From Escherichia phage vB_EcoM-Ro121c4YLVW, in the sequence record NC_052654.1: a stretch of DNA of 64,000 nucleotides. The stretch is one strand, 5' to 3'. Every line of letters starts with the position of its first letter. Position 1 is the first letter of the stretch. Below the pieces are notes generated by a model, which was given only the letters and a program-made list of their open reading frames with translations, did no database searches and had not been told where the DNA came from. Below, one piece after another: positions 17,948-35,779 of this stretch. Both the position numbers and the translations under genes were made by a program.

Positions 17948-18044
17948 GATAACCTCGTAGTAATGATAATGCCAAAAGGAAGATGCAAGATCTTCCCATA
18001 TTGATTATTGTAACACATATAGAAACTTCGTGTCAAGGGAAACG

Positions 18045-18066
18045 AAAAAACCCCGCCGAAGCGAGG
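18045..18066 (-). terminator. intrinsic terminator
   Basis: minus-sense CCTCGC-TTCG-GCGGGG followed by TTTTTT, downstream of tape measure gene. Confidence 0.6.
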
Positions 18067-18073
18067 TATTTTA

Positions 18074-20062
18074 TTAACCACCAGTGTTAGATTGTCCACT
18101 TAGAGTTGAAAGAGACAAACGTTGGAAAATGCTATTTCCGCTATTTTGAATTCTTGCATCAAGAATATTTCCAAACTCTGAAGAAGGGCTGATCGTAACT
18201 TTGATAAGATCACTTGGTATTGCTACCGTATTCTCAACAACAGGTTGATTACGAGCCAAACTTACGTTAGGTGTATAGGCTGATTCACGTAAATCTTCAA
18301 GAGGATTACCAAATCCAAAAGCACGTGTCCTTGTTTGTTCTCCTCTCCACATACGACCAATGTCTTGTGTATCAATACCTGTTAAATTGTACAACCAATC
18401 TGCTACAGGATTGCTGTCTCCACTTTGCGTTGCCTCGTATGCTTTTTGTGCCATAGATTTATTAGGATCTGTGTTGTCTCCGAATGTATCTGGGAATGTT
18501 TCTTTAAGCCAATTGGTAAAAGATCCGAAACCATCTCCCAACTCTTTAGCAAAACCTCCTAATTGAACTGTTGTCTTACCGAGTTCTTCACCTAAATCTT
18601 TGGCAAACTGATCTAGCACTTTAACGTTATCCAACCAAGAATCATCTTTAGGTAAGGCTTTCACAAAACCCTCTAAGAAGTGGTTCTGCATACCTTGACC
18701 TACAAGCTGAACTGTTGCAGCAAAACGAGTAAACTCTTTAGAAGCATCTATTTGTTCTTGAGTTAATGTTGCACCTGTTCTTTGAAGCATTTTCAATACT
18801 TCATTATACCCTTCGCCGTTTTTACTAAACATACGTTGGTAGTGCATAAGGTCATCACCAAGGTTTTCAAGAAGTCGCCCGATTTGAGCAGAGTTCATAC
18901 CTCGACGCTCACCTTCATTAACAGTAGCCTGAATAAAAGCTAAAGGATCGTTCTGTAAAGGTTTAAGCTGTTCTGGATTCCATCCAAACAAGTTCATAAT
19001 GTCATTTATGCCATTATCACCGCCTTTCCACTTCCCTTCTTTTTCATTCCACTTTGCAGCTAAAACGGTATTACCAAGACGTTCACGAACGTCTTTAATA
19101 TTATCTATTGATTTAATAATATTTGCAGAGTCTACACCGTTCTGTTCACCCCAAGCCGTCATTGCCAAAATAGCGTTGGCGTTTGTCTGAACGTTTTCAG
19201 CACCACGGCTTACAAGTTTAATTCTTTCGTTAGTATTCATCAACGTGTTACCAACTACAGAACCACCTGCAAACAGACCAGCACCTATCAAAGAGGATGC
19301 AATCATACGTGGATTAAGACCTGCTGCACCTTCTTTTAATTGTCCGTATCTACGATCACGATCACGTTTCTGTTGAGCTAATTCACGCTTACGGTTGCGT
19401 TCTATATCTCTAAGTTCACGATTTCGCATACGTATACGCATTTTAGCTTCTGCTTCTAGCTCTCTACGAATACGGCGACGACCGCGAACCTCGTCTTCTA
19501 TTTCAGCATTCTTTTCACGATGAGATCTGCGTAAAGCATCCAACTGGTGAGCAAGAGCTTGGTTCATACGTTGAAGAGTTATTTCACCCTTTTTGTATTG
19601 CTCTACAGCTTTACCCATAACGTCCCTAGCTTCTTGCATAGCGCCAGGACTGGCTTTACTAAATGCTCTTGCTCTGTAGTTAAAGTTCTGCAAACGAAGA
19701 TTACCTAAATCTTCCCTACGTGCTGCTGCTTTAGCTTCGCGTTCAGCAGCTTTACGAGCTTTTTCTTCTTCTCTTCCTTGCGGGGTTTTAGGAGTTCTAG
19801 GTCTACCAGATCCTCCTACAGGAGCACCCGCTCCAGCGGGAGTAGGTGCTCGCATAGGTTTTTGACTTTGAGTTTGAGCTTTCTTAAGTTCACGCTCAAT
19901 CTCTTTCATTTGTTGTCTAAACTTGGTCATGTTCATAGTGGGTTGCATTTTATTTGCAAACTTCTGAACACTCAACACGGCATCTTTTGCTTCCTTGAGA
20001 CTGTTCTTGTCCACCTTAAACGTAACCACGTTACTAATTTTGGAGGCGTTAATTTCTAACAA
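18074..20062 (-). CDS. tail tape measure protein
   Basis: 662 aa; Arg/Lys/Glu-rich coiled coil (RRIRRELEAEAKMRIRMRNRELRDIERNRKRELAQQKRDRDRR); located after chaperone pair. Confidence 0.7.
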   Translation of the reverse strand: MLEINASKISNVVTFKVDKNSLKEAKDAVLSVQKFANKMQPTMNMTKFRQQMKEIERELKKAQTQSQKPMRAPTPAGAGAPVGGSGRPRTPKTPQGREEEKARKAAEREAKAAARREDLGNLRLQNFNYRARAFSKASPGAMQEARDVMGKAVEQYKKGEITLQRMNQALAHQLDALRRSHREKNAEIEDEVRGRRRIRRELEAEAKMRIRMRNRELRDIERNRKRELAQQKRDRDRRYGQLKEGAAGLNPRMIASSLIGAGLFAGGSVVGNTLMNTNERIKLVSRGAENVQTNANAILAMTAWGEQNGVDSANIIKSIDNIKDVRERLGNTVLAAKWNEKEGKWKGGDNGINDIMNLFGWNPEQLKPLQNDPLAFIQATVNEGERRGMNSAQIGRLLENLGDDLMHYQRMFSKNGEGYNEVLKMLQRTGATLTQEQIDASKEFTRFAATVQLVGQGMQNHFLEGFVKALPKDDSWLDNVKVLDQFAKDLGEELGKTTVQLGGFAKELGDGFGSFTNWLKETFPDTFGDNTDPNKSMAQKAYEATQSGDSNPVADWLYNLTGIDTQDIGRMWRGEQTRTRAFGFGNPLEDLRESAYTPNVSLARNQPVVENTVAIPSDLIKVTISPSSEFGNILDARIQNSGNSIFQRLSLSTLSGQSNTGG

Positions 20063-20082
20063 AGTATGTTCCTCGTGTTGGA

Positions 20083-20831
20083 TTAAACAAGTTTCTTAAA
20101 CAAATCTGACATTTTATTTGTCTGGTTTTGATGTTTTCTCTTTATTGAAGTGTCTTTAACATACATGGCTTCAACATACTCTTCGTATGTTAAATACTCA
20201 TATAGTTTTAAAAGATAATCTACACCGTAGTTATCCAATGTTTTCAGTGTTTCCGAGGTATCTTTAACGACTTTGCAAAGAATAACCTCATACCACTTCA
20301 AAGTAAGGGTTTTCGTTGCTGTGTCGATAGCATGTTCAATCGCAGGTGTTAATTTGCTGCTAAACTCGTCATCGCCTGAAGCTGTGTGAACAGTTTTCCG
20401 AAACCTCGTTTGAAAAAAGGGCCGTAGTTTACCTCCAGAACTTTAGCAGTAAGATCTAACACTAGTTCTGGGTGAGCCATAAATAATTCATCAAAATTTT
20501 CTGCAACGTTATAACCGTCTTGCGTATAAACCTCATCTAAAATTTTACGCAAAAAGACAGTTAAATTCTTTTCTTCCAAACCTGCAAAAAGTTGGATCAG
20601 TGCCATAGCAATACGTGACTCAAGGTCTTCGTCTGCCGACATTGTTGCTGTGCTATACATAGTCATAGGAACAACCAGAACACTACCCAATTCTGGAATC
20701 CTGTCAAACACTTTAGATGGACTCCACTTCATAATACGGAAAGTAACAGATCTGTTTCCATCTAACGGAATCTCAACTACTTCTTCTGGTCGAGCATATT
20801 TTTGAATTGTGTTATCTTGTTCTTGTGACAT
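20083..20831 (-). CDS. tail assembly chaperone fusion product via programmed -1 frameshift (GT-like)
   Basis: hand translation shows -1 frame open from slippery heptamer at 20412-20418 through track ORF 20083..20301, no stops. Confidence 0.5.
20349..20831 (-). CDS. tail assembly chaperone (G-like, zero-frame product)
   Basis: 160 aa ORF between tube and tape measure; contains slippery U UUU UUC near 3' end. Confidence 0.6.
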   Translation of the reverse strand: MSQEQDNTIQKYARPEEVVEIPLDGNRSVTFRIMKWSPSKVFDRIPELGSVLVVPMTMYSTATMSADEDLESRIAMALIQLFAGLEEKNLTVFLRKILDEVYTQDGYNVAENFDELFMAHPELVLDLTAKVLEVNYGPFFKRGFGKLFTQLQAMTSLAAN

Positions 20832-20848
20832 ATTTTCCTCTCTAATGA

Positions 20849-20869
20849 TAAAAAGGGCATTTCTGCCCT
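20849..20869 (-). terminator. intrinsic terminator after tail tube gene
   Basis: minus-sense hairpin AGGGCA-GAAA-TGCCCT followed by TTTTT. Confidence 0.5.
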
Positions 20870-20876
20870 TTATTTA

Positions 20877-21356
20877 TTATTGAATTGTCAGAGCAGAGAT
20901 TGAGTTAAGGGTGCTCAAACCTACACCAACTTCATTACGCAGAAGGCTTGCATCTTTAAGACCAATAACCCATTGGTTCTCTGTAATCATTTCGCCAATA
21001 GTATCTTCAGGCTGACTTTGAATCCATCCAATCGTGCTAATGTAATAGCCACGTGGGTCTTCCAAGTAAACACTGAATGCTACTTGACGAGTAGAATACA
21101 TTGTTTGTGCATATGTTGCAAGTACTTCGTTAGCTGGAGATGTGCGTTGCAAAGACATTGTGAGTGTTCCCAAACGGTTACGACTCAAAGCTAGTGAAAC
21201 GTCGCCATCAGTCCCTGAATAAGGGTTGATAATATCGTTAGATTTAGCAATAACGATTTTAGTATCAGCCGCAAAACCCCACGGTTCCCAACCACCTAAT
21301 GAAAGGATAACTTGAGATGGGTCGTAGGCCATTACGCCAGTAAGCATTTTATCCAT
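20877..21356 (-). CDS. tail tube protein
   Basis: 159 aa ORF immediately downstream of sheath gene. Confidence 0.6.
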   Translation of the reverse strand: MDKMLTGVMAYDPSQVILSLGGWEPWGFAADTKIVIAKSNDIINPYSGTDGDVSLALSRNRLGTLTMSLQRTSPANEVLATYAQTMYSTRQVAFSVYLEDPRGYYISTIGWIQSQPEDTIGEMITENQWVIGLKDASLLRNEVGVGLSTLNSISALTIQ

Positions 21357-21402: not shown

Positions 21403-22776
21403 TTAGTTTGCAGTACGGTTAGTCAGGACGTTGACCTGAACTTTAACGTAATGGAAGAAGCCAGCGTAAACATATTCAATCTTCATCCCATCAACCAGAC
21501 GAGCATTGATTTGCGCATCAGTCATATCGGCACGAGAAGGAATATAAACAATAGGTTTCAGATCGACACGCAAACCAGTCTCTTCAGAAGTAACAACTTC
21601 ATTAGCGATGGAACCGTTGAGGATACCTACTTGGATCGGGTTAGCCAGAACAGCTTGTCGAATCAAAGCCAGACCGTTTGAAGTAGCACGAACACCACCA
21701 CCCAGCATAGACTGTTGTTTAAACAGTGTAAACAGTGATTCTTCTGTGCGAGCTTTAAACCACAAAGCATGAACAACATAGTCAACAAAGAAACCGCTAA
21801 CCATCAATCCGTCACGATAGAACAGAGTTCCATGCTCTTTACGATAGATGTTACCGTTCTGTTGAACAATATTGTTTTCCGAAGTCTGATCCAGTTTCTC
21901 GATCTCTACACCTACCAGTGTTTTACCGTGAAGAGTAGTCAAACCAGGTTGACGAGAACAGATTGCACCAACAACTGCTGCTTCTGGGAATACAGAATCT
22001 GCATCGGTCATCCACAAAGCAAAGCAAGTGTTATTATAACCGAGGTCATTCAGTCGTTCCAGAACGTTGTCTTCTGCTTTCGTTTTAATTCCAGGTTCAG
22101 AGCTAGAGAAGAAGTAAACTTTATCATTCTCTTCTACCCATGCAGCCAAAGCTAGAACATCTTCTGTTTCATGGGAATCTGAAAGGGTCCAGAACCAGCT
22201 ACTATCAATATCATGCAGAGCAGCAATATCTTCCGTAATAGCATTAGCATAGACAGTTTCTTGAGTGAAACCTGTGCTGTCAATAGAACCAAACTTACCT
22301 TCTACTGGAGTGAAAGTCATTGCAGCGCCGTTGTTAGCTACTGTAAACAGTGGGCCATAAACAAGATCTGCATTGATCATTTCAGTCAGACCAACTACAA
22401 TCTCTTGTGCAGTTGCAGTGTCATCAGCAATGAATTTAAATTCTTTTTTCTTGGTACCATTTTTGATGGTAATTGTGTAAGTTGCACTATCTTCTACGAT
22501 TGGAGTTAGAGTAAAGTTTGTAACTTCACGCTTACCAACCATGACTTGATCTGGTGGGAACAAACCGTTAAACAGTTTGACTGCCATAATATACGCTGGA
22601 TCATTTAATCCATAACCTGCTTCCAAAAGTGCATCGGAAGAAGAGTAATATTGAATCGCTTCGCCAGTTACGTTCTGACCTGTAAGGATCAGAGGAATAT
22701 CGAACTGGGTTTCACGAATTGATGTAGCACCATACAGTAAAGTTACGGTTGCTACCTTTTCACGAAAAGTTGCCAT
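21403..22776 (-). CDS. tail sheath protein
   Basis: 457 aa ORF upstream of tube gene; size and position typical. Confidence 0.65.
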   Translation of the reverse strand: MATFREKVATVTLLYGATSIRETQFDIPLILTGQNVTGEAIQYYSSSDALLEAGYGLNDPAYIMAVKLFNGLFPPDQVMVGKREVTNFTLTPIVEDSATYTITIKNGTKKKEFKFIADDTATAQEIVVGLTEMINADLVYGPLFTVANNGAAMTFTPVEGKFGSIDSTGFTQETVYANAITEDIAALHDIDSSWFWTLSDSHETEDVLALAAWVEENDKVYFFSSSEPGIKTKAEDNVLERLNDLGYNNTCFALWMTDADSVFPEAAVVGAICSRQPGLTTLHGKTLVGVEIEKLDQTSENNIVQQNGNIYRKEHGTLFYRDGLMVSGFFVDYVVHALWFKARTEESLFTLFKQQSMLGGGVRATSNGLALIRQAVLANPIQVGILNGSIANEVVTSEETGLRVDLKPIVYIPSRADMTDAQINARLVDGMKIEYVYAGFFHYVKVQVNVLTNRTAN

Positions 22777-33756: not shown

Positions 33757-33835
33757 TGGAGGCGGGAATCGGATTTGAACCGATGATCTCCAGCATATGA
33801 AACTGGCGAGGACGACCAGACTCCTCTATCCCGCT
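33757..33835 (-). tRNA. tRNA-Met (anticodon CAT)
   Basis: hand-folded cloverleaf; loop TTCATAT; T-arm ATCGG-TTCAAAT-CCGAT; CCA encoded; ends approximate. Confidence 0.7.
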
Positions 33836-33841
33836 ATTATG

Positions 33842-33913
33842 TATCCCGTGCTGGATTCGAACCAGCATCACAATAAGCTGTGGAACTCTTATCCTGTAAG
33901 TCTAACGGGAAAC
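33842..33913 (-). pseudogene. degenerate tRNA-like element
   Basis: canonical T-arm GCTGG-TTCGAAT-CCAGC and pairing acceptor strands but too short; no canonical anticodon arm; no CCA. Confidence 0.3.
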
Positions 33914-33987
33914 TGGTTGTTTCGACAAGAATCGAACTTGTGTCTCACGATTATCAGTCGTGGGTTCTACCATTGAACTACGAAACA
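33914..33987 (-). tRNA. tRNA-Ile (anticodon GAT)
   Basis: acceptor TGTTTCG/CGAAACA; stem CACGA/TCGTG; loop CTGATAA; CCA encoded. Confidence 0.8.
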
Positions 33988-33993
33988 TTTAAT

Positions 33994-34070
33994 TGGTCGG
34001 GACGGAGTGATTCGAACACTCGACCTCTCGCTCCCAAAGCGAGCGCACTACCAAGCTGTGCTACGTCCCG
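33994..34070 (-). tRNA. tRNA-Pro (anticodon TGG)
   Basis: acceptor CGGGACG/CGTCCCG; stem CTCGC/GCGAG; loop TTTGGGA; CCA encoded. Confidence 0.85.
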
Positions 34071-34163
34071 TGATAACATTCTAAAGGTACACCGCAAAAG
34101 AAAGTGTTCGGCGGCTCCTCGTTTTTAACTTCACACTTAAGGTAGTGACTCACCTTTGTTATA

Positions 34164-34239
34164 TGGCTGGTCTGTCTGGATTTGAACCAAACCTACGACA
34201 GTCAAAGTGTCGTGTGCTACCGGACTACACTACAAACCA
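34164..34239 (-). tRNA. tRNA-Gln (anticodon TTG)
   Basis: U1-A72 acceptor; stem CGACA/TGTCG; loop CTTTGAC; CCA encoded. Confidence 0.8.
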
Positions 34240-34337
34240 ATAAATCATTTAATGAAGGGCAACCAGAAGAAGTGTGAGAGAAGGAGAAAACCATGAGTAA
34301 AAGAGAAAGTTTTCTGGCAACCCTTTATTAAATAATT

Positions 34338-34411
34338 TGGAGCGTTCTACGAGGATCGAACTCGTGCCGCCGACTTGGAAGGACGGAATGCTACCGCTAC
34401 ACCAAGAACGC
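34338..34411 (-). tRNA. tRNA-Gly (anticodon TCC)
   Basis: acceptor GCGTTCT/AGAACGC; loop CTTCCAA; T-arm ACGAG-TTCGATC-CTCGT; U73; one stem mismatch. Confidence 0.65.
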
Positions 34412-34422
34412 CATATATATTT

Positions 34423-34452
34423 ACTATACTACATTTTACTATTTGTTGTCAA
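34423..34452 (-). promoter_or_regulatory. sigma70-like promoter inside tRNA cluster
   Basis: minus-sense TTGACA, 18 nt, TATAGT just upstream of tRNA-Gly 5' end. Confidence 0.5.
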
Positions 34453-34725
34453 GACTTTTATTGATTGGGACAGTGACGAGTATCCCGTTGGGTGACTAGC
34501 CCTACGTTCGGTAAGCTAACTTAAAATAATACAAAACCAAAGTCAAATATTATTCTTCGTTGCTGTCGATGGGAGAGCCGCTTCTCATTTTGCCCCATCC
34601 AACCCTACTCCGGTCAAGTTTCGGGTGACTCTTTTTGTGATCAACACAATACTAAGAACACTGTCTTTCGAGCAGACCTTGTGCACAGGATACGACGATC
34701 AATCACAGTGCTCTTAATGTTGTGT

Positions 34726-34800
34726 TGGTGCTCCCACACTGAATCGAACAGAGATCCACGGATTACAAAACCGTTGTAATAGCCATTATACTATAGGAGC
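34726..34800 (-). tRNA. tRNA-Thr (anticodon TGT)
   Basis: acceptor GCTCCTA/TGGGAGC; loop TTTGTAA; CCA encoded. Confidence 0.7.
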
Positions 34801-34806
34801 AATGCT

Positions 34807-34884
34807 GGGACTCGGCAGGATTCGATACCTGCAATTCCAGAAGCCTATTGGCGACTGGGGGGTTTACCTTAACTCTACAAGTCC
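34807..34884 (-). pseudogene. degenerate tRNA-like element
   Basis: pairing acceptor strands and T-arm-like GCAGG-TATCGAAT-CCTGC (8 nt loop) but no anticodon arm; no CCA. Confidence 0.3.
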
Positions 34885-34891
34885 ATAATTC

Positions 34892-34977
34892 TGGCGATGA
34901 GTATAGGATTCGAACCTATATTGTTCTTTCGAACACGGATTAACAGTCCGCCGCTTAAACCATTCAGCCAACTCATC
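34892..34977 (-). tRNA. tRNA with Asn anticodon arm (GTT) and long type-II variable arm
   Basis: 86 nt; acceptor GATGAGT/ACTCATC; arm GCGGA-CTGTTAA-TCCGT; extra arm GTTC-GAAA-GAAC; G73; CCA encoded. Confidence 0.6.
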
Positions 34978-34983
34978 TTAATT

Positions 34984-35071
34984 TGGTGGTGAGTGATGGA
35001 GTCGAACCACCCGAATCGCAATGATAACAGATTTACAGTCTGCCCCGCTACCCCTACGGAATTAACTCACC
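34984..35071 (-). tRNA. tRNA-Tyr (anticodon GTA)
   Basis: 88 nt type II; acceptor GGTGAGT/ACTCACC; loop CTGTAAA; A73; CCA encoded. Confidence 0.8.
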
Positions 35072-35201
35072 TAAATACTAATATTTAAATTCTTTTTAAA
35101 ATAGCCAGTGTTCACACCACTAACTATGAGGTATCGGTAAAGTGGTTACCGCCACTTGCCGAAGATTTACTCTGCTAAAGTAAGCTACATTAAAAAGAAC
35201 T

Positions 35202-35287
35202 TGGCGGTAGATGTAGGACTCGAACCTACACGCCGTTTCCGACTACAGTTTAGCAAACTGTCGTGGCTACCATTTCACCAATCTACC
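35202..35287 (-). tRNA. tRNA-Ser (anticodon GCT)
   Basis: 86 nt type II; acceptor GGTAGAT/ATCTACC; loop TTGCTAA; CCA encoded. Confidence 0.85.
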
Positions 35288-35292
35288 TAATC

Positions 35293-35383
35293 TGGCGGAA
35301 GGAGGGAGAGTCGAACTCCCAAGGCTCTTTCAAGCTCGGCGGTTTTCAAGACCGTTTTCGTCGCCACATCGATTTGCCCTTCC
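35293..35383 (-). tRNA. tRNA-Ser (anticodon TGA)
   Basis: 91 nt type II; loop CTTGAAA; T-arm GGGAG-TTCGACT-CTCCC; CCA encoded. Confidence 0.85.
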
Positions 35384-35391
35384 ATACTTAT

Positions 35392-35421
35392 AATCTAACA
35401 TAAAATAATGTTTGTTGTCAA
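35392..35421 (-). promoter_or_regulatory. sigma70-like promoter inside tRNA cluster
   Basis: minus-sense ATTGACAA then TTAGATT about 17 nt later, just upstream of tRNA-Ser(TGA). Confidence 0.45.
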
Positions 35422-35627
35422 TAGTTTTTTAAAACATTTTACCATGAATGGTGACTCCACCAACCCCCGTTCTCCACGAACGGTGCTCTTCGAGCATTTA
35501 TGTCTTCTAATATAACCGTGGCCTTTGTTTATAATGTCTGACATACTTGCCTCATTCTCTGCCACCATGATCAGTAGTGGGTTCAAATCACTTGAGCTAA
35601 TTCATGTTAAAATGTTCTGGTGTCTTT

Positions 35628-35702
35628 ACAAGGAATCGAACCTTGACTAAGAGTTTAGAAGACTCCTGTGCTATCCATTACACCATAAAGACTTTGGTGG
35701 CC
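35628..35702 (-). tRNA. tRNA-Arg (anticodon TCT)
   Basis: acceptor GTCTTTA/TAAAGAC; loop CTTCTAA; CCA encoded. Confidence 0.8.
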
Positions 35703-35704
35703 CT

Positions 35705-35779
35705 GGCTGGTTTCGATCCAGCTACCTATCGGTTATGAGCCGACAGCTCTCCCATTGAGCTACAGGGCCATAAATGTGG
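35705..35779 (-). tRNA. tRNA with CAT anticodon, tRNA-Ile2 (lysidine) -like
   Basis: acceptor GGCCCTG/CAGGGCC; loop CTCATAA; resembles E. coli tRNA-Ile2 as recalled; CCA encoded. Confidence 0.75.

What the first reader, a model, noticed from the sequence alone, without database searches (positions are those of the whole stretch)
20083..20831. Programmed -1 frameshift in the tail assembly chaperone gene (G/GT-like)
Seen in sequence: the chaperone-position gene has the slippery heptamer U UUU UUC (plus coordinates 20412-20418, minus sense) 21 codons before its stop. I translated the -1 frame from that point; it is open through the downstream small ORF to 20083, adding about 113 aa. Established knowledge: a conserved -1 frameshift producing G and GT chaperones lies between tube and tape measure genes in most long-tailed phages. 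The ORF track shows the two parts as separate ORFs.
Basis: partly seen in the sequence, partly recalled or inferred. Interest (0 to 1): 0.45.

Follow-up and report, generated by a model that had tools for sequence, protein, structure and literature searches.

The report
Frameshifted tail chaperone in phAPEC8-like phage
A phAPEC8-like E. coli phage almost certainly makes a short and a long version of its tail-assembly chaperone by letting a few ribosomes slip back one base at U UUU UUC, the classic lambda G/GT trick, which public records of this phage group do not annotate.

Summary
The window is a Phapecoctavirus (99.4% identical to phage ESCO13). On the minus strand the order is sheath, tube, 160-aa chaperone (Pfam Phage_TAC_15), small ORF, tape measure. 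T TTT TTC lies at 20418-20412 in the X XXY YYZ register. The -1 frame is open from 8 codons upstream to the TAA at 20085-20083.

The heptamer alone is weak evidence, with roughly a 14% chance of occurring. Comparison with relatives decides it:
- Every relative examined keeps T TTT TTC in register, including 19 non-redundant Stephanstirmvirinae and Vequintavirinae sequences and Aeromonas Plateaulakevirus. All have an 80-98 codon -1 extension ending before the tape-measure gene.
- The two Phe codons never vary synonymously, whereas other invariant residues do.
- The stretch that has no start codon upstream evolves as coding sequence in the -1 frame.
- Several relatives have no start codon before the conserved T core.

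No downstream RNA structure was found. An upstream GGAGG 13 nt away may stimulate slippage, but it is not universal.

Verdict: a real but ordinary -1 frameshift, a new, unannotated member of a known kind. No protein-level evidence is available.

The parts
20349..20831 (-). Gene G: tail assembly chaperone, 160 aa, the zero-frame product
20412..20418 (-). Slippery heptamer U UUU UUC (X XXY YYZ), with tRNA-Phe in both the P and A sites
   Evidence: Register confirmed. Invariant in 13 GenBank relatives, 16 + 39 IMG/VR loci and 2 Plateaulakevirus phages. Codons are TTT x14 and TTC x14, whereas the other invariant Phe residues vary: F31 TTC9/TTT5, F117 TTT3/TTC11.
20415..20421 (-). Second, overlapping in-register heptamer C CCU UUU, giving a 10-nt C CCU UUU UUC tract. 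It occurs only in the Stephanstirmvirinae-like lineage, and a slip here gives the same protein.
   Evidence: present in 19 of the 39 IMG/VR loci of the wider scan and in all phAPEC8/phi92-like records examined; absent from Vequintavirinae (..TGT TTT TTC).
20432..20436 (-). Shine-Dalgarno-like GGAGG 13 nt upstream of the heptamer (10 nt from C CCU UUU); a possible 5' stimulator
   Evidence: Sequence. Spacing falls in the 9-14 nt range quoted for -1 frameshift stimulators (PMC5009743). The Glu codon here is GAG in 15 of 16 relatives that have Glu, against GAA:GAG = 170:70 elsewhere in the same genes. It is lacking in KB57, CB7, ChuuTotoro and Plateaulakevirus, so it is not universal.
20083..20412 (-). 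T part: -1 frame reading from CAA (20412-20410) to the TAA stop (20085-20083), 109 aa. Fused to G residues 1-140 it gives GT of 249 aa.
   Evidence: The layout is an RFR(K/R) motif, a variable linker, then a conserved core (SL.W[YF]D...YLLKL.EYL) that aligns across both subfamilies. phrog_16039 and phrog_10409, both 'unknown function', correspond to its C-terminal fragment.
20302..20348 (-). Stretch between the G stop and the first possible start codon (TTG at 20301). It looks intergenic but evolves as -1 frame coding sequence.
   Evidence: Differences per codon position 1/2/3 are 0.46/0.38/0.70, the same pattern as in the annotated small ORF at 0.43/0.30/0.64. No SD precedes the TTG. The ESCO13 record gives every neighbouring gene an RBS feature but not this ORF, and starts it at ATT.
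20083..20301 (-). The 72-aa 'small ORF' of the ORF track; it is the C-terminal two thirds of the T part, not a gene of its own
   Evidence: In Hena1, KB57, CB7, pEa_55 and IMG/VR loci 23/27/31 the first ATG/GTG/TTG in this frame is at T codon 59-84, inside or after the conserved core.
20877..21356 (-). Tail tube gene (159 aa), upstream neighbour
   Evidence: phrog_280 E = 3e-35. Labelled tail tube or major tail protein in SKA64, phAPEC8_ev052 and REC.
18074..20062 (-). Tape measure gene (662 aa, TTG start), downstream neighbour; the GT stop lies 20 nt before it
   Evidence: phrog_16051 'tail length tape measure protein', 1248 bits.
21403..22776 (-). Tail sheath gene (457 aa); it shows that the tail is contractile
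   Evidence: phrog_205 'tail sheath' E = 2.9e-100.

Best explanation
The chaperone gene is decoded in two ways.

Most ribosomes read the zero frame to the TAA at 20351-20349 and make G, a 160-aa tail assembly chaperone. A minority slip when tRNA-Phe occupies UUU in the P site and UUC in the A site of U UUU UUC. Both tRNAs re-pair one base back on UUU UUU. Reading then continues in the -1 frame (CAA ACG AGG...) for 109 more codons to the TAA at 20085-20083. The result is GT, 249 aa, made of G residues 1-140 plus a T domain.

The only signal shared by all lineages is the heptamer itself. In this phage the GGAGG 13 nt upstream probably raises the rate by pairing with 16S rRNA. No downstream RNA structure takes part.

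By analogy with lambda gpG/gpGT, the G parts would coat the tape measure protein and the rare T domain would recruit the tube protein, and neither would stay in the virion.

Shown here: the sequence architecture, its conservation, and coding selection on the -1 frame. Inferred: that the slip is ribosomal, that its frequency is low, and the roles of G and T.
For: - **Site and frames.** Heptamer register and open -1 frame are. The +1 frame is closed.
- **Gene context.** The order sheath, tube, TAC, T, TMP and the TAC family membership are.
- **Conservation.** T TTT TTC is invariant and in register in 13 GenBank relatives with G identity down to about 25%, in all 16 and 39 IMG/VR loci and in Aeromonas Plateaulakevirus. 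The preceding residue varies (Pro CCT, Cys TGT, Ser AGT) but its third base is always T.
- **Synonymous-site control.** Both Phe codons are fixed, while 16 of the 20 conserved residues tabulated vary in codon choice.
- **The shift is boxed in.** The last -1 stop lies 3-12 codons upstream of the heptamer in all 19 non-redundant relatives and only 1 codon upstream in Plateaulakevirus. The conserved -1 frame motif RFR starts 2-3 codons downstream, and at its last codon the -1 residue (Arg) is better conserved than the zero-frame residue (Gly/Ala).
- **Coding signal.** The pre-start 'intergenic' stretch shows -1 frame codon periodicity.
- **No own start.** There is no canonical start codon before the T core in 7 of 19 relatives.
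- **Stop density.** The -1 frame has 5-12% stops per codon upstream of the site and none for 102-131 codons after it.
- **Possible stimulator.** The SD-like element has the right spacing and a GAG codon bias.
- **Published parallel.** The same conclusion, with a poly-T motif, was published for the related Vandenendeviridae and Andersonviridae (PMC12846349).
Against: - There is no protein or ribosome-profiling evidence, and no public record inspected annotates a joined CDS (19 distinct records).
- No roughly 250-aa fusion protein appears in two very large protein libraries.
- U-only heptamers are quoted as much less shift-prone in E. coli than A AAA AAG (PMC5009743).
- No downstream stimulator exists: fold z-scores are near 0 and the alifold consensus is only -2.7 and -1.6 kcal/mol without covariation.
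- FF is invariant in G at the protein level too, so part of the conservation reflects G function.
- A one-base insertion by RNA polymerase at the T6 run would give the identical protein.
Confidence: 0.85

Rival explanations
1. Transcriptional slippage. RNA polymerase occasionally adds one extra U while copying the T6 run. Normal translation of that minority mRNA then yields the same 249-aa GT protein (...PFFQT...).
For: The conserved element is a homopolymer run, and the product is indistinguishable at the protein level. No RNA structure is needed. The one element that would be specific to ribosomes, the upstream SD-like sequence, is not universal.
Against: Bacterial transcriptional slippage is described for runs of about 9 A or T (PMC5009743); this run is 6. 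The run never lengthens to 7 or more in any lineage. The C that closes it is invariant, and the run always sits in exact X XXY YYZ register. A GAG-biased SD-like sequence at 12-13 nt is present in most lineages.
Confidence: 0.07
2. Two separate genes. The small downstream ORF is translated on its own, by independent initiation (TTG at 20301, or ATT at 20340 as annotated in ESCO13) or by termination-reinitiation after the G stop. It would give a free protein of about 72-86 aa and no fusion.
For: GenBank records annotate it this way or leave the region empty. PHROGs holds the fragment as families of its own.
Against: - No SD precedes the TTG, and the ESCO13 record gives no RBS for this ORF alone.
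- Candidate start codons differ in type and position between relatives. In 7 of 19 relatives none exists before T codon 59-84, within or past the conserved core.
- Coding periodicity and amino-acid conservation extend upstream of all candidate starts, back to the RFR motif next to the heptamer.
- The -1 frame is kept open across the whole 20-35 codon overlap in every genome.
Confidence: 0.04
3. Coincidence or sequencing artefact. A chance heptamer lies next to a chance open frame, or an indel error has split one gene.
For: In-register heptamers occur about once per 211 codons, so one in the overlap is not rare in itself.
Against: The same two-frame layout is found in 134 GenBank records at 80% coverage or more. 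Every listed record that matches both the G and the T part does so in two pieces in different frames. It is also found in independent metagenome assemblies. Both the heptamer and the frame relation are invariant across lineages with saturated synonymous sites.
Confidence: 0.01

Closest known systems
Phage lambda gpG/gpGT programmed -1 frameshift and its homologues in long-tailed phages (Levin et al. 1993; Xu, Hendrix and Duda 2004, as summarised in PMC5009743 and PMC8785237)
   Same: The gene pair lies between the major tail (tube) gene and the tape-measure gene. The downstream ORF is in the -1 frame and has no start of its own. An X XXY YYZ heptamer sits near the 3' end of G. No downstream RNA structure is found here; from my own knowledge lambda needs none either. 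The predicted outcome is a short abundant product and a rare long one.
   Different: The heptamer is U UUU UUC (Phe-Phe) rather than lambda's G GGA AAG (from my own knowledge). The host phage is a 150-kb contractile-tailed virus. G belongs to a different Pfam TAC family (PF21822), and no sequence similarity to lambda G or T was shown. The product ratio and the functions are untested here.
Tail assembly chaperone -1 frameshift proposed for Pakpunavirus/Vandenendeviridae and Andersonviridae, with an invariant GTTTTT motif (PMC12846349, 2025)
   Same: These are related large myoviruses; that paper places them near Vequintavirinae. The reasoning is the same: the -1 frame is always open through the 'intergenic' region, and there is an invariant poly-T motif at the 3' end of TAC-N. 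The Vequintavirinae version here reads TG TTT TTT C, which contains GTTTTT.
   Different: That paper does not make the claim for Stephanstirmvirinae or Vequintavirinae. I did not align its loci with the present ones, so identity of the site is inferred. In the phAPEC8/phi92 lineage the base before the run is C (C CCU UUU UUC), not G.
Phage T7 gene 10A/10B -1 frameshift (Condron et al. 1991, cited in PMC8785237 and PMC12846349)
   Same: It is a -1 slip of tRNA-Phe on a U-rich site ending in UUC, in an E. coli phage structural gene, and it gives a minor C-terminally extended product (site details from my own knowledge).
   Different: It affects the capsid protein, not a chaperone. T7 needs a distant 3' element (PMC5009743), and none is evident here.
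E. coli dnaX and IS-element -1 frameshift cassettes
   Same: An SD-like sequence 9-14 nt upstream of the heptamer can stimulate -1 slippage (PMC5009743). The window has GGAGG at 13 nt.
   Different: dnaX also uses A AAA AAG and a strong 3' hairpin to reach about 50%. Here there is no hairpin, and the SD-like element is not conserved in all lineages.
T4-like phages' tail assembly chaperones (Vladimirov, Gautam and Davidson 2022, as described in PMC10885494)
   Same: Contractile-tailed phages that need a short and a long chaperone form.
   Different: Some T4-like phages are reported to carry separate short and long genes instead of frameshifting. In the present clade no in-frame long gene exists.

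Membership tests
G/GT-type tail assembly chaperone with programmed -1 frameshift | Gene pair located between the major tail/tube gene and the tape-measure gene | tested here: met
   On the minus strand the order is sheath 21403-22776, tube 20877-21356, G 20349-20831, T to 20083, TMP 18074-20062.
G/GT-type tail assembly chaperone with programmed -1 frameshift | Upstream ORF is a tail assembly chaperone | tested here: met
G/GT-type tail assembly chaperone with programmed -1 frameshift | Downstream ORF overlaps the 3' end of G in the -1 frame and lacks its own initiation signals | tested here: met
   The -1 frame is open from 20442 to 20083, and the overlap is 31 codons. No SD precedes the TTG, and no canonical start lies before the T core in 7 of 19 relatives.
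G/GT-type tail assembly chaperone with programmed -1 frameshift | Slippery X XXY YYZ heptamer in zero-frame register inside the overlap | tested here: met
   T TTT TTC at 20418-20412, plus the overlapping C CCT TTT.
G/GT-type tail assembly chaperone with programmed -1 frameshift | Frame relation and shift site conserved among diverged relatives | tested here: met
   Invariant in every locus examined across Stephanstirmvirinae, Vequintavirinae and Plateaulakevirus. Synonymous variation is suppressed at the site.
G/GT-type tail assembly chaperone with programmed -1 frameshift | -1 frame extension is a real protein-coding domain (T) | tested here: met
   The T alignment is conserved across the subfamilies. 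Codon-position pattern is 0.46/0.38/0.70 upstream of any start. Homologues in the 1.84-billion-protein library are all short orphan ORFs.
G/GT-type tail assembly chaperone with programmed -1 frameshift | Both G and GT are made, in a fixed ratio with G in large excess, and both are needed for tail assembly | not testable with these tools
   This needs proteomics, reporter assays or genetics. No published data for this clade were found.
G/GT-type tail assembly chaperone with programmed -1 frameshift | G binds the tape measure protein; T binds the tube protein | not testable with these tools
The T-only model is unusable, pLDDT 48.
dnaX/IS-type stimulated -1 frameshift cassette | SD-like sequence 9-14 nt 5' of the heptamer | tested here: inconclusive
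   GGAGG lies 13 nt upstream in the window. GAG is used in 15 of 16 relatives with Glu at that position, against 29% GAG elsewhere. The element is absent in 4 of 19 relatives and in Plateaulakevirus.
dnaX/IS-type stimulated -1 frameshift cassette | Stable 3' stem-loop or pseudoknot 5-9 nt after the heptamer | tested here: not met
   MFE z-scores run from -2.2 to +1.1, mostly near 0, for the 75 nt downstream in 19 sequences. The RNAalifold consensus is -2.7 and -1.6 kcal/mol with no covariation. There is no Rfam match. Pseudoknots were not modelled explicitly.
Programmed transcriptional slippage | Homopolymeric A/T run of about 9 or more | tested here: not met
   The run is T6, closed by an invariant C in all loci. 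The length criterion comes from PMC5009743.

The most novel reading that the evidence does not exclude
The shift may not be a bare-heptamer slip. The strictly conserved block around it could act as a composite signal not described before, one that sets the G:GT ratio. The block comprises GAGGU 12-13 nt upstream, the tandem C CCU UUU UUC tract, the GGUUUCG motif 6-9 nt downstream, and possibly the invariant nascent peptide NYG(P/C)FF. Alternatively, the long form could arise through RNA-polymerase slippage on a run of only six U, which would be unusually short for bacteria.
Probability: 0.12. Interest if true: 0.45.

Novelty: new member of a known kind. Interest (0 to 1): 0.25.

Why it matters
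The practical value is annotation. About 360 GenBank phage genomes matched this chaperone: phAPEC8/phi92-like, rV5-like and relatives, several of them studied as therapy or biocontrol candidates. In the records inspected, the T region is either left blank or labelled as a hypothetical small gene, and two PHROG 'unknown function' families are simply fragments of GT.

An invariant U UUU UUC across at least three deeply diverged clades also offers a clean natural example of a Phe-Phe slip site in enterobacteria without a 3' structure. That makes it a convenient cassette for measuring how far an upstream SD-like sequence alone can tune -1 frameshifting. It does not change our understanding of tail assembly.

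Tried and rejected
- **Downstream stimulatory structure.** I folded 75 nt after the heptamer in 19 sequences and ran RNAalifold on the two subfamilies. No stable or covarying helix appeared. The only recurrent pairing involves the slippery run itself.
- **Rfam scan of 19900-21000.** Only two sub-threshold sRNA matches over the terminator region.
- **GGTTTCG motif after the heptamer as an RNA signal.** Dual coding explains it better: GF in frame 0 and RFR in frame -1. It is also absent in Plateaulakevirus.
- **Structure of the fused GT.** The T-only single-sequence model has pLDDT 48 and was not used.
- **Sequence searches of GT.** Nothing against PDB chains and nothing relevant in NCBIfam.
- **Search for natural in-frame G-T fusions or annotated joined products.** None among the hits of two large protein libraries. 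The 3956-aa hit P0045 is a repeat protein with summed weak chance similarity.
- **Literature.** No paper in the held library reports this frameshift for phAPEC8, phi92, rV5 or their subfamilies. The Vladimirov 2022 paper could not be read.
- **The +1 frame as an alternative.** It is closed within 2-20 codons of the G stop in all relatives.

Full report
**What the window is.** The 5 kb around the finding is 99.4% identical to Escherichia phage ESCO13 and other members of the genus Phapecoctavirus (subfamily Stephanstirmvirinae, about 150-kb myoviruses). On the minus strand the order of genes is:
- tail sheath (21403-22776, phrog_205);
- tail tube (20877-21356, phrog_280);
- a 160-aa ORF (20349-20831);
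- a 72-aa ORF (20083-20301);
- the tape measure protein (18074-20062, phrog_16051).

**Checking the observation.** The zero frame reads ...GTA AAC TAC GGC CCT TTT TTC AAA CGA.... T TTT TTC at 20418-20412 is therefore in the X XXY YYZ register, with codon 139 (UUU) in the P site and codon 140 (UUC) in the A site, 21 codons before the stop.

The -1 frame has a stop at 20445-20443. It is then open through the heptamer and the G stop to the TAA at 20085-20083, 20 nt before the TTG start of the tape-measure gene. The extension is 109 residues rather than about 113, so GT would be 249 aa. The +1 frame is closed.

**Is it more than chance?** The heptamer by itself is not. Eighteen structural ORFs of the window contain 21 in-register X XXY YYZ heptamers in 4433 codons, so a 31-codon overlap has about a 14% chance of holding one. 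The open -1 frame is somewhat more telling. Upstream of the site the -1 frame of G has 14 stops in 152 codons, so a stop-free run to the first possible start codon has P of about 0.03. The decisive evidence is comparative.

**Comparative evidence.** A tblastn search with the hypothetical fusion found 357 phage records. In 134 of them at least 80% of the query is covered, and every listed record that matches both the G and the T part does so in two pieces in different frames.

I examined four sets of relatives:
- Thirteen GenBank relatives from both Stephanstirmvirinae and Vequintavirinae, whose G proteins are only 25-82% identical to the window's. They are phiWec181, alia, FBKp34, FV3, FENT2, Hena1, KB57, Av-05, SSE121, CB7, A73, ChuuTotoro and pEa_SNUABM_55.
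- Sixteen IMG/VR loci.
- Thirty-nine IMG/VR loci from a profile-based scan.
- Two Aeromonas Plateaulakevirus phages that lie outside both subfamilies.

In every one of them T TTT TTC is present in register in the overlap. The -1 frame runs 80-98 codons past the G stop and ends shortly before the tape-measure gene or, in CB7 and the Aeromonas phages, a short annotated ORF that precedes it. The +1 frame is closed where checked.

The residue before the two phenylalanines varies (Pro CCT, Cys TGT, Ser AGT), yet its third base is always T.

A control for synonymous variation is clear. Of the 20 conserved residues tabulated in the 14-sequence G alignment, 16 vary in codon choice. They include the other two invariant phenylalanines (F31 TTC 9/TTT 5; F117 TTT 3/TTC 11). 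F139 is TTT in all 14 and F140 is TTC in all 14.

**Where the shift must occur.** The last -1 frame stop lies 3-12 codons upstream of the heptamer in all 19 non-redundant relatives. In Plateaulakevirus it lies only one codon upstream (...TAA GAG TTT TTT C).

Two or three codons downstream of the heptamer, the -1 frame encodes a motif RFR(K/R) conserved in 18 of 19 sequences. The zero-frame codons over it are fixed: GGT x14, TTC x13. At its last codon the zero-frame residue varies (Gly/Ala) while the -1 residue stays Arg. The change of frame is thus confined to a handful of codons centred on the heptamer.

**The -1 extension is a real domain and has no start of its own.** The T parts align across both subfamilies. 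After RFR comes a linker of variable length, Gly/Ser-rich in Vequintavirinae, and then a conserved core (...SL.W[YF]D.L...YLLKL.EYL...).

In the window the first ATG/GTG/TTG in this frame is the TTG at 20301, and no Shine-Dalgarno sequence precedes it. The 15 codons between the G stop and that TTG differ among relatives at codon positions 1/2/3 with frequencies 0.46/0.38/0.70. That is the same coding signature as the annotated small ORF, at 0.43/0.30/0.64.

Inside the overlap the most variable position is the one that is third in the zero frame. This is expected if G constrains the overlap and the T linker is loose.

In Hena1, KB57, CB7, pEa_55 and three IMG/VR lineages there is no canonical start codon in the -1 frame until T codon 59-84, which is inside or beyond the conserved core. 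This excludes independent initiation or reinitiation as a general way to make T.

**Stimulatory elements.**
- The 75 nt after the heptamer fold no better than dinucleotide shuffles in 19 sequences (z mostly near 0).
- RNAalifold consensus energies are -2.7 and -1.6 kcal/mol with no covariation.
- Rfam has no match.

Upstream, the window has GGAGG at 20436-20432, 13 nt from the heptamer. This is within the 9-14 nt quoted for SD-like stimulators of -1 frameshifting (PMC5009743). The Glu codon that forms it is GAG in 15 of the 16 relatives that have Glu there, whereas GAA outnumbers GAG 170:70 elsewhere in the same genes. That suggests selection on the nucleotide sequence. However, four of 19 relatives and the Plateaulakevirus phages lack it. 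It is at most a lineage-specific enhancer, and the heptamer is the only universal signal.

In the phAPEC8/phi92 lineage the heptamer is preceded by an overlapping second one (C CCU UUU). A slip there would give the same protein.

**Mechanism and rivals.** The best explanation is a programmed -1 ribosomal frameshift of the lambda G/GT type. Tandem slippage of tRNA-Phe from UUU UUC to UUU UUU would give a minor 249-aa GT alongside the major 160-aa G.
- *Transcriptional slippage* at the T6 run would give the same protein and cannot be excluded from sequence. But bacterial slippage is described for runs of about nine (PMC5009743), and the run is never longer than six here.
- *Separate translation of the small ORF* is contradicted by the missing start codons and by coding conservation upstream of all candidate starts.
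- *Chance or sequencing error* is contradicted by conservation in hundreds of independent genomes.

The roles of G (coating the tape measure) and T (recruiting the tube protein), and a low shift frequency, are inferred from lambda (PMC5009743). They were not tested.

**Comparison with what is known, and novelty.** The phenomenon is a textbook one. None of the 19 distinct GenBank/RefSeq records I opened annotates a joined CDS. ESCO13 starts the small ORF at ATT and gives it no RBS feature.

Two very large protein libraries contain only G proteins of about 160 aa and 55-107-aa T fragments, and no fusion. Some of those fragments begin MFFQERFR..., so they also carry TTTTTTC.

No paper in the held library reports the frameshift for phAPEC8, phi92, rV5 or their subfamilies. 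A 2025 paper makes the same argument, with an invariant GTTTTT motif, for the related Vandenendeviridae and Andersonviridae (PMC12846349). The Vequintavirinae site here, TG TTT TTT C, contains that motif, so this is probably the same ancestral site, though I did not align the loci.

**Verdict.** The feature is real, ordinary in kind and unannotated in this clade. Interest is modest (0.25). Experimental confirmation by a junction peptide or a reporter assay is still missing.

Noticed in passing
window 20852-20871 (minus strand): An intrinsic-terminator-like hairpin (AAAGGGCAGAAATGCCCTTT followed by TTATCATT) sits between the tube gene stop and the chaperone start. The FBKp34 record annotates a terminator at the homologous place. 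It could lower transcription of the chaperone and tape-measure genes relative to sheath and tube.
   Followed up: partly
window 18007-18067 (minus strand): A terminator-like hairpin (18067-18050, 7 bp stem with a T run) lies right after the tape-measure stop. It is followed by the best sigma-70-like match of the region (18036-18007: TTGACA, 18 nt, TG, TACAAT; 11 of 12) ahead of the next tail gene.
   Followed up: no
window 33757-35769 (minus strand): A cluster of 10 tRNA genes (Met x2, Ile, Pro, Gln, Gly, Thr, Asn, Ser, Arg). None is tRNA-Phe, so the slip site would be read by the host tRNA-Phe.
   Followed up: no
window 20340 (minus strand); L001 3161-3418: RefSeq ESCO13 annotates the small ORF with a non-canonical ATT start 9 nt after the G stop. 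It is the only gene in the block without an RBS feature. Other records start it at TTG or GTG, or omit it.
   Followed up: yes
GenBank records MG065653-MG065690 (hits H46, H59-H61, H93, H97, H100, H117): About 23 records named 'Campylobacter phage' (host C. jejuni) carry rV5-like or phi92-like chaperone loci. Their identity to the query is the same as that of the E. coli phages. The host label looks doubtful.
   Followed up: no
window 18074-20062 (minus strand): The tape measure gene appears to start with TTG at 20062, preceded by GAGGA. The GT stop lies only 20 nt upstream, so ribosomes finishing GT end next to the TMP initiation site.
   Followed up: no
PHROGs phrog_16039, phrog_10409, phrog_8811: Three PHROG families of 'unknown function' match only the C-terminal part of the -1 frame extension. 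They appear to be fragments of GT rather than independent proteins.
   Followed up: partly
L013 (CB7) 2000-2116; L076/L077 (Aeromonas phages): In CB7 and the Plateaulakevirus phages the -1 ORF ends 78-320 nt before the next annotated long gene, and CB7 has an extra short ORF annotated in that gap. Elsewhere the gap is 11-57 nt.
   Followed up: no
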